24,000 nt of DNA from an uncultured Acidobacteriota bacterium (GTDB lineage: Bacteria > Acidobacteriota > Blastocatellia > Pyrinomonadales > Pyrinomonadaceae). Below, in pieces: positions 12,908 to 18,040 of the stretch. The DNA is taken from positions 97,502 to 121,501 of the forward strand of contig CAVSLK010000009.1 in the NCBI GenBank assembly GCA_963728685.1, read 5' to 3'. The notes beneath the pieces are model-generated. The model was given only the letters and a program-made list of their open reading frames with translations. It did not search any database and was not told the origin of the DNA. A program made the translations under genes and the position numbers. Numbering within the stretch: the first letter of the stretch is position 1; each line of letters starts with the position of its first letter.

Positions 12908-13828
12908 ATGATATCAAGGGTCTTAATAACATTTATTTTATCGGTGCTGACGATCACGGCGGCGGCGGGGCCGGTGTATGGCGCGGCGGCGGTGAGGACC
13001 ACGCGGAAAATATTCCTGGGCGACACGCAAGTAAAGATCAACGTATATGAAAACGCGGGCAGCGCCCTTACTTTTATCGCGCCGCATCACAACGAGCAGA
13101 CGGGTTTGAGGCTGGCAAAGGAGTACGTGGAAAAATACGGCGGCCGCCTGATCGAGATCGAATCGTTCGATAGCAAAGGCGCTCCCTCCCGCTACCTGAG
13201 TTTTACCGCCAATGGCAAATCTTACACTATCGATCCCAACCGTATCTTCACCGAGAACGGCAGAAGCTGCGCCGGCGGCCTTTCGGAAGTCGGGCCCCAG
13301 GTCGAAGCTTTCGCCGCAGAGGTGTTAAAAGTTTTGCTCACCGAAGGTAAAGAGCTTCCCGCCGGCGAAAGATTCCTGGTCGCCGTTCATAACAATACTG
13401 ACGTCGATTCGAAAACCGAGAACGCGCGGCCTAACGACCTGACGGCTTACGCTTTTGTGCGGGCCTCTTTTACCAAAGAACTTTCGCACGGTATTTTTCA
13501 GGAACAGGCCGAAGGCGTTTATCTTTCAAACACTGAGGACGACCAGGATAATTTCATCTTTCTGTCCACGCCGAAATACGTCGGCTACTTTGCCGAAAGA
13601 GGCTTCAACGTGGTGGTGCAAAAATCGGCGGCAAAACTCCAGTCGCAAAAATGCAGCGTCGATGACGGTTCGCTCTCTGTTTTTTCCGCCCGTCAAAATA
13701 TTTCCTACATCTGTCTCGAGGCCGACTCCGCGACCGGCGATTATCGCCAGCGTCAAATGCTCGCGGCGGTTTATCAACTGGCCAAACAGGAAAACGAAAT
13801 TCCTCCGGCGGCGGTGGCAAAGAAATAA
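12908..13828 (+). CDS. exported protein with M14-carboxypeptidase-like zinc motifs (putative peptidase/amidohydrolase)
   Basis: 306 aa. Signal peptide MISRVLITFILSVLTITAAAG. Motif order APHHNEQTG (HxxE), DPNRIF (NR) and VAVHNN (third His) resembles the M14 / succinylglutamate-desuccinylase fold. Family assignment is tentative. Confidence 0.5.
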   Translation: MISRVLITFILSVLTITAAAGPVYGAAAVRTTRKIFLGDTQVKINVYENAGSALTFIAPHHNEQTGLRLAKEYVEKYGGRLIEIESFDSKGAPSRYLSFTANGKSYTIDPNRIFTENGRSCAGGLSEVGPQVEAFAAEVLKVLLTEGKELPAGERFLVAVHNNTDVDSKTENARPNDLTAYAFVRASFTKELSHGIFQEQAEGVYLSNTEDDQDNFIFLSTPKYVGYFAERGFNVVVQKSAAKLQSQKCSVDDGSLSVFSARQNISYICLEADSATGDYRQRQMLAAVYQLAKQENEIPPAAVAKK

Positions 13829-13863
13829 AGTTTTGAGTCCCGCCTTTAGGCGGCCTTCTTAGG

Positions 13864-13931
13864 CAGAAACGCGACAGTTATGGAGCGTGTCTTTTAACAT
13901 TTATACACGCTCCATAACTGTCGCGTTTCTG
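13864..13931. repeat. 27-bp perfect inverted repeat with 14-nt loop (CAGAAACGCGACAGTTATGGAGCGTGT ... ACACGCTCCATAACTGTCGCGTTTCTG)
   Basis: Arms 13864-13890 and 13905-13931 are exact reverse complements. No T-run follows. Preceded by the small hairpin CCGCCTTTAGGCGG at 13843-13856. Confidence 0.8.
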
Positions 13932-13963
13932 TCTAATTGTGTTAATCTTCTCCCAACCAGAGT

Positions 13964-14662
13964 ATGGAAATTTCCGTCATCATCCCGACCTTCAACGAAG
14001 AATTGATCATCAAGAAAACACTCGACGCATTGTCGCGGCTGGTTAACGTGTCGGAGGTGGTGGTGGTGGACGGCGGCAGCACGGATAAAACGCTGGAGAT
14101 CATTGAAAGCTACGCGGGGCTAAAAAAACTCACGCTGATCAAAACCGCCGAGGCCAACCGCAGCCGCCAGCTAGACGCGGGCACGCGCGCCGCGGCGGGC
14201 GACATCTTCTGGTTCGTGCACGCCGACACGCGCCCCGTTCAGGGCTGCGGCGCAAAGATCAAAGGCGTGATGAAATACAGCGAGGTCGCCGGGGGAAATT
14301 TCGAGATCCTCTTTGACGGCGACAGTCGCTGGGCACATTTCCTCAACCGCCTTTACCCCTACCTGCGCTCGCTGGATATGGTCTACGGCGATTCGGCGAT
14401 GTTTGCCGGCCGCGCGGCCTATGAAAAAGTGGGAGGTTTTAGGCCCGCTTACGGTATTTTCGCCGACGTCGATCTTTTCCGGCGCCTGCGAAAGACGGGC
14501 GATTTTATTCACCTGCCGCAATCGGTCGTGATCTCGCAGCGCAGGTTCACCGACCGGCCTTTTTTCTTTCCCATGATAGGCTGGCTGGCGCTCCAGGGGC
14601 TCTACTGGATCGGCGTTCCCGGAAAAACCCTGGCGAAATATTCCACGCCGTCCAAACGGTAA
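13964..14662 (+). CDS. family 2 glycosyltransferase
   Basis: 232 aa. N-terminal ISVIIPTFNEE...VVVVDGGSTDKT (GT-A fold, nucleotide-binding/DxD region) and later FVHADT. Confidence 0.85.
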   Translation: MEISVIIPTFNEELIIKKTLDALSRLVNVSEVVVVDGGSTDKTLEIIESYAGLKKLTLIKTAEANRSRQLDAGTRAAAGDIFWFVHADTRPVQGCGAKIKGVMKYSEVAGGNFEILFDGDSRWAHFLNRLYPYLRSLDMVYGDSAMFAGRAAYEKVGGFRPAYGIFADVDLFRRLRKTGDFIHLPQSVVISQRRFTDRPFFFPMIGWLALQGLYWIGVPGKTLAKYSTPSKR

Positions 14663-14796
14663 TTTTTCGGGCAGGTGTAAATATTTCGCCTTTACCCTTT
14701 TACCCTCACACTTCCTGGAGGCTCCCCTCACGAAGGAGGGGTGGCGCGCGCTTCGCGCGACGGGTGGTTCTTCACATTCGTCAAATAAAAGCTAAG

Positions 14797-14899
14797 AGCG
14801 GGCGCAAGCGGCCTTCCGGACTGCAAATTTATTAGACTTTAATATTTACCATTCAAGTTGGAATGTCTCTCAGGTCGGGAAGGGTTGCTTGCGCCCGCT
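14797..14899. repeat. inverted pair of the XRE 3'-flank motif (about 27-bp imperfect arms, 43-nt AT-rich loop); probable bidirectional terminator or MITE-like unit
   Basis: AGCGGGCGCAAGCGGCCTTCCGGACTG (14797-14823) pairs with CTCTCAGGTCGGGAAGGGTTGCTTGCGCCCGCT (14867-14899). T-rich sequence follows on both strands. Lies between convergent GT2 and XRE paralogue D. Confidence 0.7.
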
Positions 14900-14905
14900 T
14901 TTAAT

Positions 14906-15172
14906 TTATTTGTATTTCGCCGGCAGATCCAATTCGTCGTCGATCAAAACATCCGTCGAAATTCGCGCTACTTTCGCATACGCTCTTAAGATCAGAAGCG
15001 ACGGTAACGAGTGTCCGGTTTCATAATTTCCAACATAACCTCGATAAATCTTTACGTCTTGACGCGCCAAAGCATCGGCCATTTCTGATTGCGAGAAATT
15101 AAGAGCAATCCGAATTTGCTTAAGTTTCTCCGCTATTCGCTTAGGTTTTTCTTCTTTAGCTTTACCCATCAA
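14906..15172 (-). CDS. XRE-family helix-turn-helix transcriptional regulator (88 aa), paralogue D
   Basis: KPKRIAEKLKQIRIALNFSQSEMA...GNYETG...VLIDDELDLPAKYK. Same architecture as 7450-7713, 7724-7987 and 8426-8681. Confidence 0.85.
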   Translation of the reverse strand: MMGKAKEEKPKRIAEKLKQIRIALNFSQSEMADALARQDVKIYRGYVGNYETGHSLPSLLILRAYAKVARISTDVLIDDELDLPAKYK

Positions 15173-15212
15173 GAAAAAACTCCTTGACAGGTAAATTCAA
15201 ATGGCCTAAGAT

Positions 15213-15230
15213 TGCCTGTAGATACAGGCA
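15213..15230. promoter_or_regulatory. palindrome TGCCTGTA-GA-TACAGGCA, candidate operator upstream of XRE paralogue D
   Basis: 8-bp perfect arms, 41 nt upstream of the paralogue D start codon. TTGACA at 15184-15189 on the + strand suggests a divergent promoter region. Confidence 0.4.
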
Positions 15231-15438
15231 GTAATTCGGTCTTGAAATAGCACGCCGTATTCTTTTGAATATGGCCGCGCGAGTAGATCAAGATTTATTG
15301 CCCGTAGAGGTCAGTGGCATTCGATGCTCGTTTTCAAAGATGTGGGATGACGAAAGAAATTGTAGCATCCCTGTCAATTTTCACCGCCGAAGCGGTGAGT
15401 AGCAATAAATATAGCATTCTTACCGGACTCCCAAAACT

Positions 15439-15763
15439 ATGGAACAACGTGAAATTGCCTCGTTGGAAGTTGAAACCCGGCCGCTGCCCGGACAGGTCTT
15501 TTATATTTTAGATAAAAACGCTTCGGAGGTTACTCCTCCGATCGGAGCCGGCTACGCGAAAATTATCAACCTGTTAAGAAGCGAGGCGGTCAAAATTTTT
15601 ATCACCGACAGGCAAGGAAAAGCCAAAATAGAAGGCTTAAAAGCAGGAACCTATTATGTCTGCGGTGTAGGTGAACAAGAAGCGGAGTTTGGAATGTCCG
15701 GATAGACCTGAAGCCGGGCAAAAATAGTTTGAAATTGGATAACCAGAGTAACCATTCGGAATA
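15439..15763 (+). pseudogene. small beta-sandwich-like protein (carboxypeptidase-regulatory-like motif KAGTYYV), apparently frameshifted near its 3' end
   Basis: Frame A: MEQREIASLEVETRPLPGQVFYILD...ITDRQGKAKIEGLKAGTYYVCGVGEQEAEFGMSG*. The +1 frame continues VWNVRIDLKPGKNSLKLDNQSNHSE*, a plausible natural C-terminus. The switch lies about 15672-15690. The last codons run into the MITE-like element. No signal peptide or SD recognised. Confidence 0.35.
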
Positions 15764-15837
15764 GATGAAAGATAATAGCTGATAGCTGAGAGATTCCTGT
15801 CTAATATCTATAATCCATCAGTTTCATCTATTCCGAA
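15754..15837. mobile_element. MITE-like element, second copy (TIR TTCGGAATAGAT / ATCTATTCCGAA)
   Basis: 84 bp. Same terminal repeats and 42-nt conserved half as 7211-7293, but inverted relative to it. Confidence 0.7.
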
Positions 15838-15845
15838 AATGTTTC

Positions 15846-15920
15846 GGGAGCGAGGCTGTGCCTGCATGTGGGAGACTGAGCGCGAAAGACGCGTCAGGCA
15901 GGCAAGGTGCCCGCGCTCCC
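15846..15920. other. GC-rich 75-nt element predicted to fold into a three-stem rod (candidate structured RNA or REP)
   Basis: Nested complementary segments: GGGAGCG (15846-52)/CGCTCCC (15914-20); GCCTGC (15860-65)/GCAGGC (15898-903); CTGAGCGCG (15876-84)/CGCGTCAG (15890-97) with loop AAAGA. Embedded in AT-rich non-coding DNA. Confidence 0.35.
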
Positions 15921-16092
15921 CCCGGGCCTATACCGTAAAAGTAGAAATACCCAATTTACACCACTACCATTTTTTCCTTGCCATCGATTGCTCTAAGCGC
16001 TATGATTTCCCTATAGCCCGCTCGCATTTGAAATAATTATCTCTCCTGATAAGACTCTCCTTAAATATCTTAATGAAGGAAGGGACATCTTT

Positions 16093-16473
16093 ATGTATAA
16101 GAAATTGATCAGCGTACTCGTTCTGATGTTTTTGATGGCGATCGCGATTCCCGTGTTGGCGCAAAGGTACGATTCCTGCGAACGGCGCGGACGCGGCAAT
16201 GCGTACGGCCATCAAAAACAGCGCTATGACAGGGGCAGGAATGTCCGCTACTATCGCCAGGACTACGGGCGCAGAAACAGGCGCTCTAATTACAGTTACG
16301 GCGGAAATTACGGGGGCTACTATGCTCCGGCTTATTACCCGCAAACCTATTACGCGCCAAGCTACTACACGATCAGAAGGCGTCCGGTTCGCCGTATTTA
16401 CAACAATTACAGCTATCGCCCGCGTTATCGCCGGGCAAACCGTGGCCAGATAAGCTTTAGCATCGGCTTCTAG
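16093..16473 (+). CDS. small exported Arg/Tyr/Gly-rich low-complexity protein
   Basis: 126 aa. SD GGAAGGGA about 8 nt upstream. Signal peptide MYKKLISVLVLMFLMAIAIPVLAQ is similar to those of the next two genes. Mature part is dominated by R, Y, G and N (YGGNYGGYYAPAYYPQTYYAPSYY, RRRPVRR) and ends ISFSIGF. Confidence 0.7.
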   Translation: MYKKLISVLVLMFLMAIAIPVLAQRYDSCERRGRGNAYGHQKQRYDRGRNVRYYRQDYGRRNRRSNYSYGGNYGGYYAPAYYPQTYYAPSYYTIRRRPVRRIYNNYSYRPRYRRANRGQISFSIGF

Positions 16474-16749
16474 CGCGGCACGGTAAATGCCTATCATTCT
16501 AACGGGAGAACCGGGTCAGATCGTTAAAATTCAGCACGGTTCTTCCCGTTAAAAGTACCGGTCCAGGTATTATATGTGCTCTTAACTTACAGAGTTTATT
16601 GTATTTATGGCCGGTTTAAGCGACGATATTTCAATTGATTGGCAACGTGAGATAAAACGAGCTAATCTAAATAGTCTAATGAGTCATTTTGTATCAAATG
16701 ATTACACGGCTTAATAGCTGGAAAAAGAAAAAGGGGGAAATTTGAAACA

Positions 16750-17112
16750 GTGAAAAACAGATTAATAGCAATATTCGTAGTGATCGTGATGCTAATGTTG
16801 ACAGTGCCGGTCTTAACGACTTCTGTCAGCGCCAGTACGCCGGGTATCGGCGCCGGCGCTCAAAAGTATTATTACTATCGGGACAGGCGCGGCCGTCTTC
16901 ATAGAACGACGAAAAAGCCGAGCTGGTACCGCAGGCACCGCAATGCTTCTAACGTAGGGATCGCAACCGGTGCGGGCGCTGTGATCGGCGCTCTGGCGGG
17001 CGGCGGAAAAGGCGCTTTGATCGGAGCGGGCGTTGGGGCCGGCAGCGGCGCGCTTTATACCTACAAGCTCAAAAAGAAAAAGAGACACTACGTCAAGAGA
17101 CGGAGATACTAA
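16750..17112 (+). CDS. small exported basic protein with OsmB/YMGG-like glycine zipper
   Basis: 120 aa. GTG start with SD AAGGGGGAAA upstream. Signal peptide MKNRLIAIFVVIVMLMLTVPVLTTSVSAS. Basic Y/R segment, then glycine zipper GIATGAGAVIGALAGGGKGALIGAGVGAGSGALY, then tail KLKKKKRHYVKRRRY. A strong terminator follows. Confidence 0.8.
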   Translation: MKNRLIAIFVVIVMLMLTVPVLTTSVSASTPGIGAGAQKYYYYRDRRGRLHRTTKKPSWYRRHRNASNVGIATGAGAVIGALAGGGKGALIGAGVGAGSGALYTYKLKKKKRHYVKRRRY

Positions 17113-17136
17113 GCTCTGCAAACAAATGAAAAAAAG

Positions 17137-17170
17137 GCCGTGTGGATGCAGATCCGACGCGGCTTTTTTT
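17137..17170 (+). terminator. rho-independent terminator
   Basis: 11-bp stem (GCCGTGTGGAT / ATCCgACGCGGC, one bulge), GCAG loop, followed by T7 (17164-17170). Confidence 0.8.
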
Positions 17171-17196
17171 CTTTGCCGCCGGTTTTAGCCGGCGAG

Positions 17197-17332
17197 TTTA
17201 AATTGCCACTAGCTTTAGCTAGTGGGACGTGAAATTTAATTCAAGACCCGGGCTTTAGCCCAATTCGGCTGAAGCCGATCAAAAATCATTTTTACTTTGC
17301 TGACCACTAGCTAAAGCTAGTGGCAATTTAAA
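17197..17332. repeat. 136-bp MITE-like element with 29-bp perfect terminal inverted repeats, each arm itself containing a palindrome
   Basis: TTTAAATTGCCACTAGCTTTAGCTAGTGG (17197-17225) is the exact reverse complement of 17304-17332. Each arm holds CCACTAGC-TTTA-GCTAGTGG. The interior carries the further mini-hairpins GGGCTTTAGCCC and TCGGCTGAAGCCGA, and GCCGGTTTTAGCCGGC lies just upstream. Confidence 0.8.
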
Positions 17333-17532
17333 TCTAAGAATGGGGAATTAAATCGATTCTGTACACGAAATAGTGTACCCACTAACTATATGGTATATAA
17401 AGAGTTAGAGGTTTTTATGGCAACGCCTGCTAATACCTGCTCATCTTATTGCATGTAACGAATTATTCGTTACGATTAGTTTTTTCTCCTCACCGGTTTA
17501 TGGCCGGTTACTATGAAAGGAAGACTAAAGCA

Positions 17533-17865
17533 ATGAAAAAGAGACTAATAGCAACATTTATAATGATCGCAATGATGGCCGTGATGGTTCCTTTAATGTC
17601 CGTTTCGGCGAGCGCGCAAACCAAACGAAGTTATCGCAGCAATCGCGCTTATACGCAGCCGGTTTATAAAAAGCCGAATATCTATCAGAGACACCGTAAT
17701 GTTTTTAACGTGGGTATCGGCGCCGGAGCAGGCGCGCTGATCGGCGCATTAGCCGGCGGCAAAAAAGGCGCGTTGCTGGGCGCTCTGATAGGCGGCGGCA
17801 GCGGTGCCGTTTACACCTACGGCATCAAGCCGAAGAAAAAGGTTTACTACAATCGCAGGTACTAA
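17533..17865 (+). CDS. small exported basic protein with OsmB/YMGG-like glycine zipper (paralogue of 16750-17112)
   Basis: The ORF track starts at 17449, but ATG 17533 has SD GAAAGGAAG upstream and opens the signal peptide MKKRLIATFIMIAMMAVMVPLMSVSASAQ. Mature part: basic Y/R segment, GIGAGAGALIGALAGGKKGALLGALIGGGSGAVY, tail KPKKKVYYNRRY. Confidence 0.8.
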   Translation: MKKRLIATFIMIAMMAVMVPLMSVSASAQTKRSYRSNRAYTQPVYKKPNIYQRHRNVFNVGIGAGAGALIGALAGGKKGALLGALIGGGSGAVYTYGIKPKKKVYYNRRY

Positions 17866-17901: not shown

Positions 17902-17938
17902 GCCGCGGCGGGTTGAAAAACACTCGTCGCGGCTTTTT
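17902..17938 (+). terminator. rho-independent terminator
   Basis: GCCGCGGCG ... CGTCGCGGC stem (9 bp including one G-U) followed by TTTTT. Confidence 0.7.
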
Positions 17939-18040
17939 AATTCCATGGTGTTGCATCTACTTTTTTCCCAAACAACGCGTTGAATTGTAAGTGGCTTTGC
18001 CTCATAAAATAGCCGAAGCCGGAGCGGAGTGTTCGGATGC

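What the first reader, a model, noticed from the sequence alone, without database searches (positions are those of the whole stretch)
16093..17865. Three tandem, separately terminated genes for tiny exported Arg/Tyr/Gly-rich proteins
All three start with related signal peptides (M(Y/K)K(K/N/R)LI..(F/V)...M.....VP.L). The mature proteins are extremely basic and tyrosine-rich. The first (16093-16473) is a low-complexity R/Y/G/N polymer (YGGNYGGYYAPAYYPQTYYAPSYY) ending ISFSIGF. The other two (16750-17112, 17533-17865) place an OsmB/YMGG-type glycine zipper (GAGAGALIGALAGG.KGAL.GA..G.GSGA.Y) between basic arms ending RRRY/NRRY. They have no lipobox Cys, so they are not OsmB-type lipoproteins. Glycine zippers form membrane-inserting helices, and R/Y/G-rich sequences are typical of adhesive or condensate-forming proteins. 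The combination, and its triplication among repeat elements, matches no family I can name.
Basis: partly seen in the sequence, partly recalled or inferred. Interest (0 to 1): 0.6.

Follow-up and report, generated by a model that had tools for sequence, protein, structure and literature searches.

The report
Three small cationic exported envelope proteins
Three neighbouring genes of an uncultured soil Acidobacterium encode tiny, very basic exported proteins: two are non-lipidated members of the known glycine-zipper (OsmB/YMGG-type) family, and the first is a disordered arginine/tyrosine-rich offshoot that lost the zipper. All three are real and conserved, but their function is untested.

Summary
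The three ORFs are real, conserved genes of an uncultured Pyrinomonadaceae (Acidobacteriota, Blastocatellia) MAG.

Genes 2 and 3 (16750-17112, 17533-17865) belong to a lineage-specific subfamily of the Pfam YMGG/OsmB-type glycine-zipper family. The subfamily has over 500 homologues and occurs in 200 of 201 sampled genomes of the family, at 1-9 copies, often in tandem. It was not found in about 140 other Acidobacteriota. Nearly all have an AxA|Q signal-peptidase-I site and none of 121 has a lipobox. They are therefore non-lipidated, polycationic (+16 to +21) zipper proteins.

Gene 1 (16093-16473) is full-length only in this genus. It is predicted disordered, is 22% Arg and 20% Tyr, and is under purifying selection (dN/dS 0.04-0.22). 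Its signal peptide is the closest genome-wide match to those of genes 2 and 3. Another genus carries the same Cys-R/Y arm fused to a zipper. Gene 1 is therefore a zipper-less paralogue with an invariant beta-strand-like tail (ISFSIGF).

No transporter, immunity or partner gene is linked. The likeliest role is stand-alone envelope proteins acting as non-lipidated analogues of OsmB/SlyB/YfgH. This is inferred, not shown. The scan's index held no look-alike sequence.

The parts
15978..16006 (+). Sigma-70-type promoter-like site of gene 1 (TTGCCA-17-TATGAT)
   Evidence: Found by the consensus scan. Both hexamers lie in blocks conserved across 7 orthologous loci at 52-85% protein identity.
16007..16092 (+). 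Conserved 5' leader of gene 1, with two CTCTCCT boxes and the Shine-Dalgarno sequence GGAAGGGA
   Evidence: Long invariant blocks in the 7-locus alignment. The leader alone does not fold stably (z +1.55).
16093..16473 (+). RY gene. Signal peptide 16093-16161 (predicted cut VLA|Q). The mature protein is 103 aa, disordered and Arg/Tyr/Gly/Asn-rich, with one invariant Cys near its N-terminus and an invariant tail ISFSIGF (16450-16470).
   Evidence: ORF; 11 homologues; invariant columns; dN/dS 0.04-0.22; composition; AlphaFold pLDDT below 50 over nearly all of residues 25-115.
16500..16551 (+). Stable hairpin after gene 1, without a U-tract
   Evidence: The 101-nt stretch containing it folds at -31.1 kcal/mol, z -2.74. 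The terminator scan did not flag it.
16639..16668 (+). Promoter-like site of gene 2 (TTGGCA-18-TAATCT)
   Evidence: Read from the sequence. Partly conserved in a 3-locus alignment. Weak evidence.
16750..17112 (+). GZ-A gene: signal peptide, basic Tyr-rich arm, KKPSWYRRHRN motif, glycine-zipper region, basic tail ending RRRY
   Evidence: ORF; PF13441 at 29.3 bits, above the 28.9 cut-off; orthologues.
17128..17176 (+). Intrinsic terminator of gene 2 (A-tract, GC hairpin, U-tract)
   Evidence: The 76-nt stretch containing it folds at -28.1 kcal/mol, z -3.45, with 0 of 200 shuffles as good.
17197..17332 (.). MITE-like 136-bp element with perfect 29-bp inverted termini, inserted between genes 2 and 3
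   Evidence: Inverted repeat I2. Found at 58 places in the genome, 39 near full length. The spacer is about 120 nt shorter in the orthologous locus L009.
17382..17474 (+). Conserved upstream region of gene 3: palindromic box CTAACT-N15-AGTTAG (17382-17408), TGGCAAC...CTCATCTTAT block (17418-17449), and conserved-stem hairpin GTAACGAA/TTCGTTAC (17454-17474)
   Evidence: 7-locus alignment; fold of 17440-17550 with z -3.37.
17533..17865 (+). GZ-B gene: signal peptide (cut ASA|Q), basic arm, KKPNIYQRHRN motif, zipper with a GG-KK-G stretch mid-zipper, tail ending NRRY
   Evidence: ORF and start; PF13441 at 28.6 bits; more than 536 homologues; AlphaFold helix over residues 50-98, pLDDT 74-82.
17902..17943 (+). 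Intrinsic terminator of gene 3
   Evidence: 12-bp stem with 9 GC pairs, followed by TTTTT. The 85-nt stretch containing it folds at -25.5 kcal/mol, z -3.22.

Best explanation
**Shown**
- The three genes are paralogous, independently transcribed genes for Sec-exported, signal-peptidase-I-processed, non-lipidated, strongly polycationic proteins of 8.9-12.8 kDa.
- Genes 2 and 3 belong to a Blastocatellia-restricted subfamily of the YMGG/OsmB-type glycine-zipper family. This subfamily is a near-universal, multi-copy, tandem-prone component of Pyrinomonadaceae genomes.
- Gene 1 is a derivative that is full-length only in this genus. It keeps the family's signal peptide and a long Cys-Arg/Tyr arm, lacks the zipper, and ends in an invariant amphipathic beta-strand-like tail with a C-terminal Phe.

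**Inferred**
- After export, the Gly/Ala-rich helical zipper of GZ-A and GZ-B inserts into an envelope membrane from the periplasmic side, most likely the outer membrane, and self-associates through GxxxG packing.
- The Lys/Arg/Tyr arms, and possibly the conserved mid-zipper GG-KK-G stretch, bind anionic lipid head groups, LPS or cell-wall polymers. This electrostatic anchoring would replace the lipid anchor of OsmB, SlyB and YfgH.
- The proteins would then act as stand-alone envelope stabilisers, plausibly under osmotic or desiccation stress.
- The RY protein would be a disordered polycationic accessory of the same envelope compartment. It would be held in place by its C-terminal strand (beta-augmentation or outer-membrane-protein-like recognition) and possibly by a disulfide through its single Cys.
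For: **Real genes**
- ORFs, Shine-Dalgarno sequences and terminators are present.
- Promoter and leader blocks are conserved across orthologous loci.
- dN/dS is 0.04-0.22 for gene 1.
- There are more than 536 homologues of gene 3 and 11 of gene 1.

**Export without lipidation**
- The n/h/c signal architecture is present, with AxA|Q in nearly all members and 0 of 121 with a lipobox.

**Family and range**
- PF13441 matches.
- The GZ profile hits 200 of 201 family genomes at 1-9 copies (mostly 2-7), often in tandem.
- At E<=1e-12 it is found only within the class: own family 7/7, a second family of the class 2/2, and 0 in about 140 other genomes of the phylum.

**Paralogy of gene 1**
- Its signal peptide is the nearest genome-wide match to those of GZ-B and GZ-A, and hhalign agrees.
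- Another genus of the family (g15, 6 of 6 genomes) encodes the same Cys plus R/Y arm fused to a zipper.
- The mature-arm alignment scores z = 4.7 against composition-preserving shuffles, 0 of 500 as good.

**Structure**
- The zipper region is helical at pLDDT 74-82 and the arms are disordered.
- Mature RY is disordered.

**Analogy**
- Glycine-zipper lipoproteins SlyB and YfgH are described as outer-membrane stress stabilisers (bioRxiv 10.64898/2025.12.22.696046).
- The best local fold and sequence matches, none significant, are outer-membrane zipper proteins: Dot/Icm OMC, TraT, SlyB-BamA and an OmpA-family chain.

**Stand-alone housekeeping or stress character rather than a weapon**
- The family is universal and well conserved, genomic contexts vary, and no linked transporter or immunity gene is present.
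Against: - No expression, localisation or phenotype data exist.
- Fold and PDB similarity to SlyB-type proteins is not significant (E >= 0.86; E 1e-3 over the zipper only).
- The SlyB periplasmic domain and the lipid anchor are absent.
- A secreted polycationic zipper peptide is physically also what a membrane-active antimicrobial looks like.
- The RY tail matches only the generic outer-membrane-protein pattern (21 of 7,073 crude ORFs). It does not match a profile trained on this genome's TonB-dependent receptors (rank 251 of 7,063).
- Which membrane is targeted cannot be told from sequence.
Confidence: 0.5

Rival explanations
1. The proteins are polyanion-binding matrix or protectant proteins. 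They would act outside the membrane, in the periplasm or on the cell surface. There they would coat or cross-link anionic polymers (exopolysaccharide, extracellular DNA, polyphosphate, mineral surfaces), or act as hydrophilin/LEA-like desiccation protectants. The zipper would serve only for self-association.
For: - The proteins carry extreme positive charge and Tyr content and have disordered arms.
- Mature RY meets the hydrophilin criteria of more than 6% Gly and hydrophilicity index above 1.0 (10.7% Gly, GRAVY -1.72; criteria as quoted in PMC7448490).
- Pyrinomonadaceae are discussed in papers on drought and desert soils.
- Arm length varies through short repeats such as YNQR and YGGN, as in other matrix proteins.
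Against: - The most conserved parts of the GZ proteins are the hydrophobic Gly/Ala zipper and the RHRN motif, not the arms.
- No route across the outer membrane is encoded nearby.
- GZ-A and GZ-B do not meet the hydrophilicity criterion (GRAVY -0.77 and -0.52).
Confidence: 0.2
2. The proteins are Sec-dependent, bacteriocin-like, membrane-permeabilising peptides. In this reading the cationic glycine-zipper peptides are weapons against competitors, like glycine-zipper class II bacteriocins or Caulobacter CdzC/CdzD, and the tandem copies are a toxin repertoire.
For: - Glycine-zipper small proteins include contact-dependent bacteriocins (PMC5380434).
- The proteins are cationic and amphipathic and are encoded by tandem paralogues.
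- There is a weak NCBIfam hit to the geobacillin-26 family (14.4 bits against a cut-off of 40).
Against: - The family is present in 200 of 201 genomes, with 55-80% identity across genera. Bacteriocins are usually patchy and fast-evolving.
- There is no double-glycine leader, ABC/T1SS exporter, HlyD or immunity-like membrane gene in any of 9 contexts examined.
- Sec export into the producer's own periplasm without an exit route would be self-toxic.
Confidence: 0.1
3. Gene 1 only: the RY protein is a signalling or regulatory ligand of the outer-membrane-protein assembly or quality-control machinery. Its C-terminal strand would mimic an unassembled outer-membrane protein and dock on BamA/BamD or on a PDZ protease.
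For: - The tail ISFSIGF is the most conserved mature segment and ends in an invariant Phe.
- Tails of the same pattern recur in remote relatives: ISVSLGF, ISVSFGF, VRVVFGF.
- The pattern hydrophobic-x-hydrophobic-x-hydrophobic-x-Phe at the C-terminus occurs in only 21 of 7,073 crude ORFs, of which 6 are TonB-dependent receptor-type proteins (4 in the PF00593 hit list, 1 a fragment of a fifth, 1 assigned by length and tail only).
Against: - A profile of this genome's receptor C-termini ranks the tail only 251st of 7,063.
- No barrel is predicted.
- No Bam or protease gene is linked.
Confidence: 0.12
4. The ORFs are not functional genes: chance ORFs, or decaying duplicates among repeat elements.
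For: - The sequence is low-complexity, and an equally long antisense ORF overlaps gene 1.
- Repeat elements flank the genes.
Against: - The sense frame is under purifying selection and the antisense frame is neutral.
- Indels fall in multiples of three, and the signal peptide, Cys and tail are invariant.
- Promoter and Shine-Dalgarno sequences are conserved.
- There are hundreds of homologues.
Confidence: 0.02

Closest known systems
Pfam PF13441 Gly-zipper_YMGG proteins (E. coli YmgG type; glycine-zipper clan)
   Same: The zipper of GZ-A and GZ-B matches the model at or near its cut-off (29.3 and 28.6 bits against 28.9). Some homologues are already auto-annotated 'YMGG-like glycine zipper-containing protein'. 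They are small exported proteins.
   Different: The match covers only about 36 zipper residues. The conserved PS-x-Y-x-RHRN-x-x-N motif before the zipper, the polybasic Tyr-rich arms and the P-K-K-K...RRY tail are specific to the Blastocatellia subfamily. No member of either group has a tested function that I could find.
OsmB (osmotically inducible lipoprotein)
   Same: A small envelope protein consisting mainly of a glycine zipper. There is a weak hit to the NCBIfam OsmB model (16.1 bits).
   Different: The score is far below the cut-off of 98. There is no lipobox Cys in 0 of 121 members, and the site is for signal peptidase I (AxA|Q). These proteins have long basic arms.
SlyB/Pcp and YfgH, glycine-zipper outer-membrane lipoproteins
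   Same: All share a Gly-zipper helical element, and JGI auto-annotation calls many homologues 'SlyB'. SlyB and YfgH are described as stress-specific outer-membrane stabilisers (bioRxiv 10.64898/2025.12.22.696046), which is the working model proposed here.
   Different: PF05433 scores 17.8 bits, below the 24.2 cut-off. There is no lipid anchor. At 82-92 mature residues there is no room for the extra periplasmic domain. The Foldseek match to SlyB13-BamA (7ojf) is not significant (E 8.5).
CdzC/CdzD glycine-zipper contact-dependent bacteriocins of Caulobacter (PMC5380434)
   Same: Small glycine-zipper proteins that act at the cell surface and are encoded as neighbouring paralogues.
   Different: I recall the Cdz proteins being exported by a dedicated type I system with a linked immunity gene; I did not read the paper to confirm this. 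Here there is a Sec signal peptide and no linked exporter or immunity gene. Distribution is near-universal rather than patchy.
Hydrophilins / LEA-like proteins
   Same: Mature RY meets the physicochemical definition of more than 6% Gly and hydrophilicity above 1.0 (definition quoted in PMC7448490). It is predicted disordered.
   Different: This is a physicochemical class, not a homologous family. RY is exported, Tyr/Arg-dominated, and has a hydrophobic C-terminal strand.

Membership tests
Pfam PF13441 Gly-zipper_YMGG | HMM score at or above the gathering cut-off (28.9 bits) | tested here: met
   GZ-A scores 29.3 bits and meets it. GZ-B scores 28.6 bits, just under in this copy, but PF13441.13 is precomputed for the identical protein P0013. 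RY has no hit, so RY is not a member.
OsmB-type lipoprotein | Lipobox [LVI][ASTVI][GAS]C at the end of the signal peptide | tested here: not met
   0 of 121 aligned homologues have a lipobox-like motif. 114 have no Cys at all. ASA/ADA/ANA|Q sites dominate.
OsmB-type lipoprotein | NCBIfam NF007830 score at or above 98 bits | tested here: not met
   GZ-B scores 16.1 bits and GZ-A is not listed.
SlyB/Pcp (PF05433 glycine zipper 2TM) lipoproteins | PF05433 at or above 24.2 bits, plus a lipid anchor | tested here: not met
   GZ-B scores 17.8 bits. There is no lipobox. The Foldseek match to 7ojf has E 8.5.
Glycine-zipper bacteriocins (class II / Cdz type) | Dedicated leader (double-glycine or T1SS signal) with a linked exporter and immunity gene | tested here: not met
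   All members have Sec-type signal peptides. None of the 9 gene neighbourhoods holds an ABC/HlyD exporter or a small membrane immunity gene.
Glycine-zipper bacteriocins (class II / Cdz type) | Antibacterial activity of the mature peptide | not testable with these tools
   Needs a bench assay.
Outer-membrane beta-barrel proteins (C-terminal beta-signal) | C-terminal Phe with alternating hydrophobic residues | tested here: inconclusive
   The generic pattern is met by RY, one of 21 among 7,073 crude ORFs, of which 6 are TonB-dependent receptor-type proteins (4 in the PF00593 hit list, 1 a fragment of a fifth, 1 assigned by length and tail only). A PSSM from the genome's own receptors ranks it 251st of 7,063.
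Outer-membrane beta-barrel proteins (C-terminal beta-signal) | A beta-barrel domain | tested here: not met
   AlphaFold predicts no strands. pLDDT is below 50 over nearly all of mature RY, and 103 residues is too short for a monomeric barrel.
Hydrophilins | Gly above 6% and mean hydrophilicity above 1.0 | tested here: met
   Mature RY has 10.7% Gly and GRAVY -1.72. GZ-A (-0.77) and GZ-B (-0.52) do not meet it. The criteria are quoted in PMC7448490.
Hydrophilins | Accumulation under water deficit | not testable with these tools

The most novel reading that the evidence does not exclude
The zipper proteins and the RY protein together form a non-lipidated, electrostatically anchored envelope scaffold specific to Blastocatellia. 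Zipper oligomers would sit in the outer membrane. The RY protein would be an intrinsically disordered polycation tethered to outer-membrane proteins or to the Bam machinery by a beta-signal-like C-terminal strand. Together they would form an Arg/Tyr-rich gel or condensate in the periplasm that holds the envelope together during drying. That would be a new way of building and protecting a diderm envelope.
Probability: 0.12. Interest if true: 0.65.

Novelty: new variant of a known kind. Interest (0 to 1): 0.35.

Why it matters
Pyrinomonadaceae and other Blastocatellia are abundant in dry and nutrient-poor soils, but their envelope biology is almost unstudied. This subfamily is present in essentially every genome of the family, in several copies. 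It is a non-lipidated, polycationic version of a protein type (OsmB, SlyB, YfgH) that is only now being recognised as an outer-membrane stress stabiliser.

If these proteins anchor by charge instead of by a lipid, the known ways of using a glycine zipper in the envelope would widen. It would also give a candidate marker for envelope stress or desiccation physiology in a major soil lineage.

The RY gene shows a zipper protein turning into a purely disordered Arg/Tyr protein with a new C-terminal strand, which is a small but clean case of gene birth by domain loss. None of this overturns current understanding, and the function remains inferred.

Tried and rejected
- **Rfam.** No RNA family was found in the window.
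- **Gene 1 leader as a riboswitch or thermometer.** The leader is conserved but its fold is no better than shuffles (z +1.55). Rejected as a stable structure.
- **Frameshift origin of the RY tail.** There is no zipper remnant in other frames or downstream of gene 1. There are only weak resemblances of YYTIRRRPVRRIY and YSYRPRYRR to the zipper proteins' C-terminal tail (E 0.06-0.18 in a tiny search space), and I do not rely on them.
- **RY tail as a lineage-specific outer-membrane-protein beta-signal.** Only the generic pattern fits. The receptor-trained PSSM ranks it 251st of 7,063.
- **Structural homology.** Foldseek against PDB gave nothing with E below 0.86. The profile search of PDB sequences gave one zipper-only hit.
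- **Shared locus for the fused long-arm zipper genes of genus g15.** No GT2, unk300 or TPR neighbour lies within the 1.5-kb flanks.
- **Functional link to the conserved neighbours.** The neighbours are a secreted 306-aa protein with no family, and a TIGR04283-like GT2 scoring 168.6 bits, below the 182 cut-off. Synteny persists to about 40-50% identity, but I see no mechanistic link and treat it as inherited gene order.
- **Antisense 165-aa ORF over gene 1.** Rejected as coding.
- **Literature.** I found no paper on the PF13441 family's function.
Full report
**Observation**

The three ORFs are present as described: 16093-16473 (126 aa), 16750-17112 (120 aa, GTG start) and 17533-17865 (110 aa). 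For the third gene the list of ORFs also offers a TTG at 17449. All homologues begin at the MKKRLIATF methionine, so 17533 is the start.

With the predicted signal peptides removed, the first protein is 22% Arg, 20% Tyr and 11% Gly, with net charge +20. Genome background is 6% Arg and 3% Tyr. The other two carry +21 and +16. Their central 38 residues hold 8 GxxxG and 15 small-xxx-small motifs.

Genes 2 and 3 are followed by strong hairpin-plus-U-tract terminators. Gene 1 is followed by a stable hairpin without a U-tract. 'Separately terminated' is therefore fully true for two genes and uncertain for the first.

**Are they genes?**

Gene 1 overlaps a 165-aa antisense ORF. I collected seven orthologous genes.
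- The sense frame has dN/dS 0.04-0.22, with substitutions concentrated at third positions.
- The antisense frame gives about 0.9-3 and is interrupted in some orthologues.
- The protein alignment has only in-frame indels. The signal peptide, a single Cys, several Tyr/Arg positions and the last residues S-x-x-IGF are invariant.
- A sigma-70-like promoter (TTGCCA-17-TATGAT, 15978-16006) and an 85-nt leader are conserved across loci whose proteins are only 52-85% identical.
- Gene 3 also has conserved upstream blocks and a conserved-stem hairpin.
- Gene 2 has a weaker promoter-like site.

All three are real, independently promoted genes.

**Families**

Genes 2 and 3 hit Pfam PF13441 (Gly-zipper_YMGG) at 29.3 and 28.6 bits against a cut-off of 28.9. 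They also give sub-threshold hits to other glycine-zipper models, including OsmB, YiaD and PdsO.

Gene 3 has more than 536 homologues in the 5.8-billion-protein collection. Nearly all are about 100-120 aa. [quoted passage not shown]

In an alignment of 121 members:
- None has a lipobox, and 114 have no Cys.
- The signal peptide ends ASA, ADA or ANA, followed by an invariant Gln.
- The GG-KK-G stretch in the middle of the zipper has KK in 103 of 121.
- The C-terminal tail carries +5 to +10.

They are therefore not lipoproteins with misread starts.

A motif just before the zipper (P-S-x-Y-x-R/K-H-R-N-x-x-N) is invariant and is not part of the Pfam model.

**Phyletic range**

The GZ profile finds the family in 200 of 201 sampled genomes of the window's family (59 of 60 genera). 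Copy number is 1-9 (mostly 2-7), frequently as tandem pairs or triples. At E<=1e-12 it is confined to the class: own family 7/7, a second family 2/2, and none in about 140 other genomes of the phylum. The tandem arrangement is therefore a family habit, not a peculiarity of this locus.

**Gene 1**

Gene 1 has no Pfam or NCBIfam family. It has only 11 homologues in the word-indexed search. An exhaustive profile search of 1.84 billion representatives finds 9 clusters.

Full-length matches occur in all five genomes of the window's genus, all of them uncultured MAGs.

More distant members keep the plan of signal peptide, R/Y/D/H/G/N-rich low-complexity region with YYAP-type motifs, and a tail such as ISVSLGF, ISVSFGF or VRVVFGF.

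AlphaFold predicts the mature protein as disordered (pLDDT below 50).

**Relation between gene 1 and the zipper genes**

Three results point to paralogy.
1. Of 84,415 candidate N-termini in the genome, the best matches to gene 1's signal peptide are those of genes 3 and 2. hhalign aligns the two family profiles over exactly this segment.
2. In another genus of the family (6 of 6 genomes), the gene 1 profile matches the N-terminal arm of longer proteins. These continue into the RHRN motif, a full zipper and the RRY tail. The arm has a Cys at mature position 4-6, QRY repeats and GYYAPSY..GYYP..YY.
3. The mature arm of one such protein aligns colinearly with mature RY at z = 4.7 against composition-preserving shuffles. 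A second gives z = 3.3. A third protein, from a different genus (g3), is not significant.

Gene 1 is best read as a long-armed zipper gene that lost its zipper and acquired a new C-terminus. I found no zipper remnant in other frames or downstream, so how the loss happened is open.

**Context**

In eight further loci the order is unk300 (secreted, no family), then GT2 (TIGR04283-like, below cut-off), then RY. In all but one locus, whose contig ends just past RY, one or two zipper genes follow, even at about 40-50% identity. Where the loci reach far enough, the divergent MarR(-DUF2779)-YceI block lies upstream.

Zipper genes in other genera sit in unrelated neighbourhoods. None of the nine contexts has an exporter, an immunity-like gene or a regulator that travels with the zipper genes.

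In the window two insertions have occurred:
- about 1.1 kb between GT2 and RY, carrying an HTH_3 gene and a SpaA-like fragment (one search compared);
- a 136-bp MITE-like element between genes 2 and 3, which occurs at 58 places in the genome.

**Structure and analogues**

With 121 sequences, AlphaFold gives a helical zipper region (residues 50-98, pLDDT 74-82) and disordered arms. Whether this is a hairpin or a long helix is not resolved by the output.

Foldseek finds nothing significant. The nearest local matches are zipper segments of outer-membrane proteins: Dot/Icm outer-membrane cap, TraT and SlyB13-BamA. The only PDB sequence hit is the zipper of an OmpA-family protein.

The literature held here describes SlyB and YfgH as glycine-zipper lipoproteins that stabilise the outer membrane under envelope stress. 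It describes CdzC/CdzD as glycine-zipper contact-dependent bacteriocins. I found no functional paper on PF13441.

**Mechanism**

Shown: export signals, non-lipidation, polycationic arms, a conserved helical zipper, paralogy, lineage restriction, and near-universal multi-copy presence without linked partners.

Inferred: the zipper inserts into and oligomerises in an envelope membrane, probably the outer membrane. The basic Tyr-rich arms, and perhaps the mid-zipper KK, bind anionic head groups, LPS or wall polymers and so replace the lipid anchor of OsmB, SlyB and YfgH. I put this at about 0.5.

The rivals are as follows.
- **Polyanion-binding matrix or hydrophilin-like protectant, about 0.2.** RY meets the hydrophilin criteria.
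- **Bacteriocin-like peptides, about 0.1.** This is weakened by the universal distribution and the lack of export and immunity genes.
- **For RY alone, a C-terminal strand that mimics an outer-membrane protein, about 0.12.** The generic pattern is rare in the genome and enriched in receptor-type proteins. A receptor-trained profile does not single it out.

**Novelty and verdict**

Two of the three genes are members of a known and already auto-annotated domain family, in a distinctive non-lipidated, cationic, lineage-specific form. The third is an orphan that can be traced to the same family. This is a new variant of a known kind. It is of moderate interest, mainly for envelope biology of a major soil lineage.

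The scan's own index held no look-alike sequence. Its word search only returned other unstudied exported Tyr/Arg-rich proteins in unrelated taxa.

Noticed in passing
window 17197-17332: A 136-bp element with perfect 29-bp inverted termini is a MITE-like repeat. It is found at 58 places in the genome, 39 of them near full length at about 70-77% identity. It accounts for most of the extra spacer between genes 2 and 3 compared with the orthologous locus L009.
   Followed up: partly
window 14663-16092: The spacer between the GT2 gene and gene 1 is 1,430 nt here, against about 130-665 nt in relatives. The extra DNA carries an HTH_3 (XRE-type) gene (14906-15172, minus strand), an 88-aa SpaA/prealbumin-like ORF (15439-15705), and a 16-bp perfect inverted repeat (15755-15837). 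It looks like a small insertion.
   Followed up: partly
window 16035-16065 and 17483-17492: A CTCTCCT box occurs twice in the conserved leader of gene 1 and once in that of gene 3, upstream of purine-rich Shine-Dalgarno sequences (GGAAGG). It could be an anti-SD or a protein-binding element. The gene 1 leader does not fold stably, whereas the gene 3 leader does (z -3.4).
   Followed up: partly
window 17382-17408: A conserved palindromic box CTAACT-N15-AGTTAG lies about 125 nt upstream of gene 3 in all 7 orthologous loci. It is a candidate operator, and its regulator is unknown.
   Followed up: no
L016-L020, L022 (genus g15 of the same family): Longer zipper proteins (143-164-aa open frames) carry a Cys plus Arg/Tyr/Gln/Ser-rich arm homologous to gene 1, fused to a complete zipper. 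They are followed by a second zipper gene about 400 nt downstream.
   Followed up: partly
P0104, P0108, P0112 (homologues of gene 3): Some zipper proteins carry a two-Cys motif, C-Y-Y-(N/D)-x-(D/Y)-G-(Q/E)-x-(I/V)-C-R-D, in the N-terminal arm. This suggests a disulfide-closed loop module in place of the plain basic arm.
   Followed up: no
P0136-P0138 (remote hits of the gene 1 profile): These are small exported proteins rich in His/Asp/Arg/Tyr, with YYAPxYY repeats and C-terminal tails such as VYFSLGL and VRVVFGF. They may belong to a wider unnamed class of disordered envelope proteins with a terminal beta-strand. Their organisms are unknown.
   Followed up: no
window 12908-14662 and loci L009-L011, L026-L028: A secreted 306-aa protein with no family and a 232-aa TIGR04283-like GT2 (168.6 bits, below the 182 cut-off) precede gene 1 in every locus examined. 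No mechanistic link to the small proteins is evident.
   Followed up: partly
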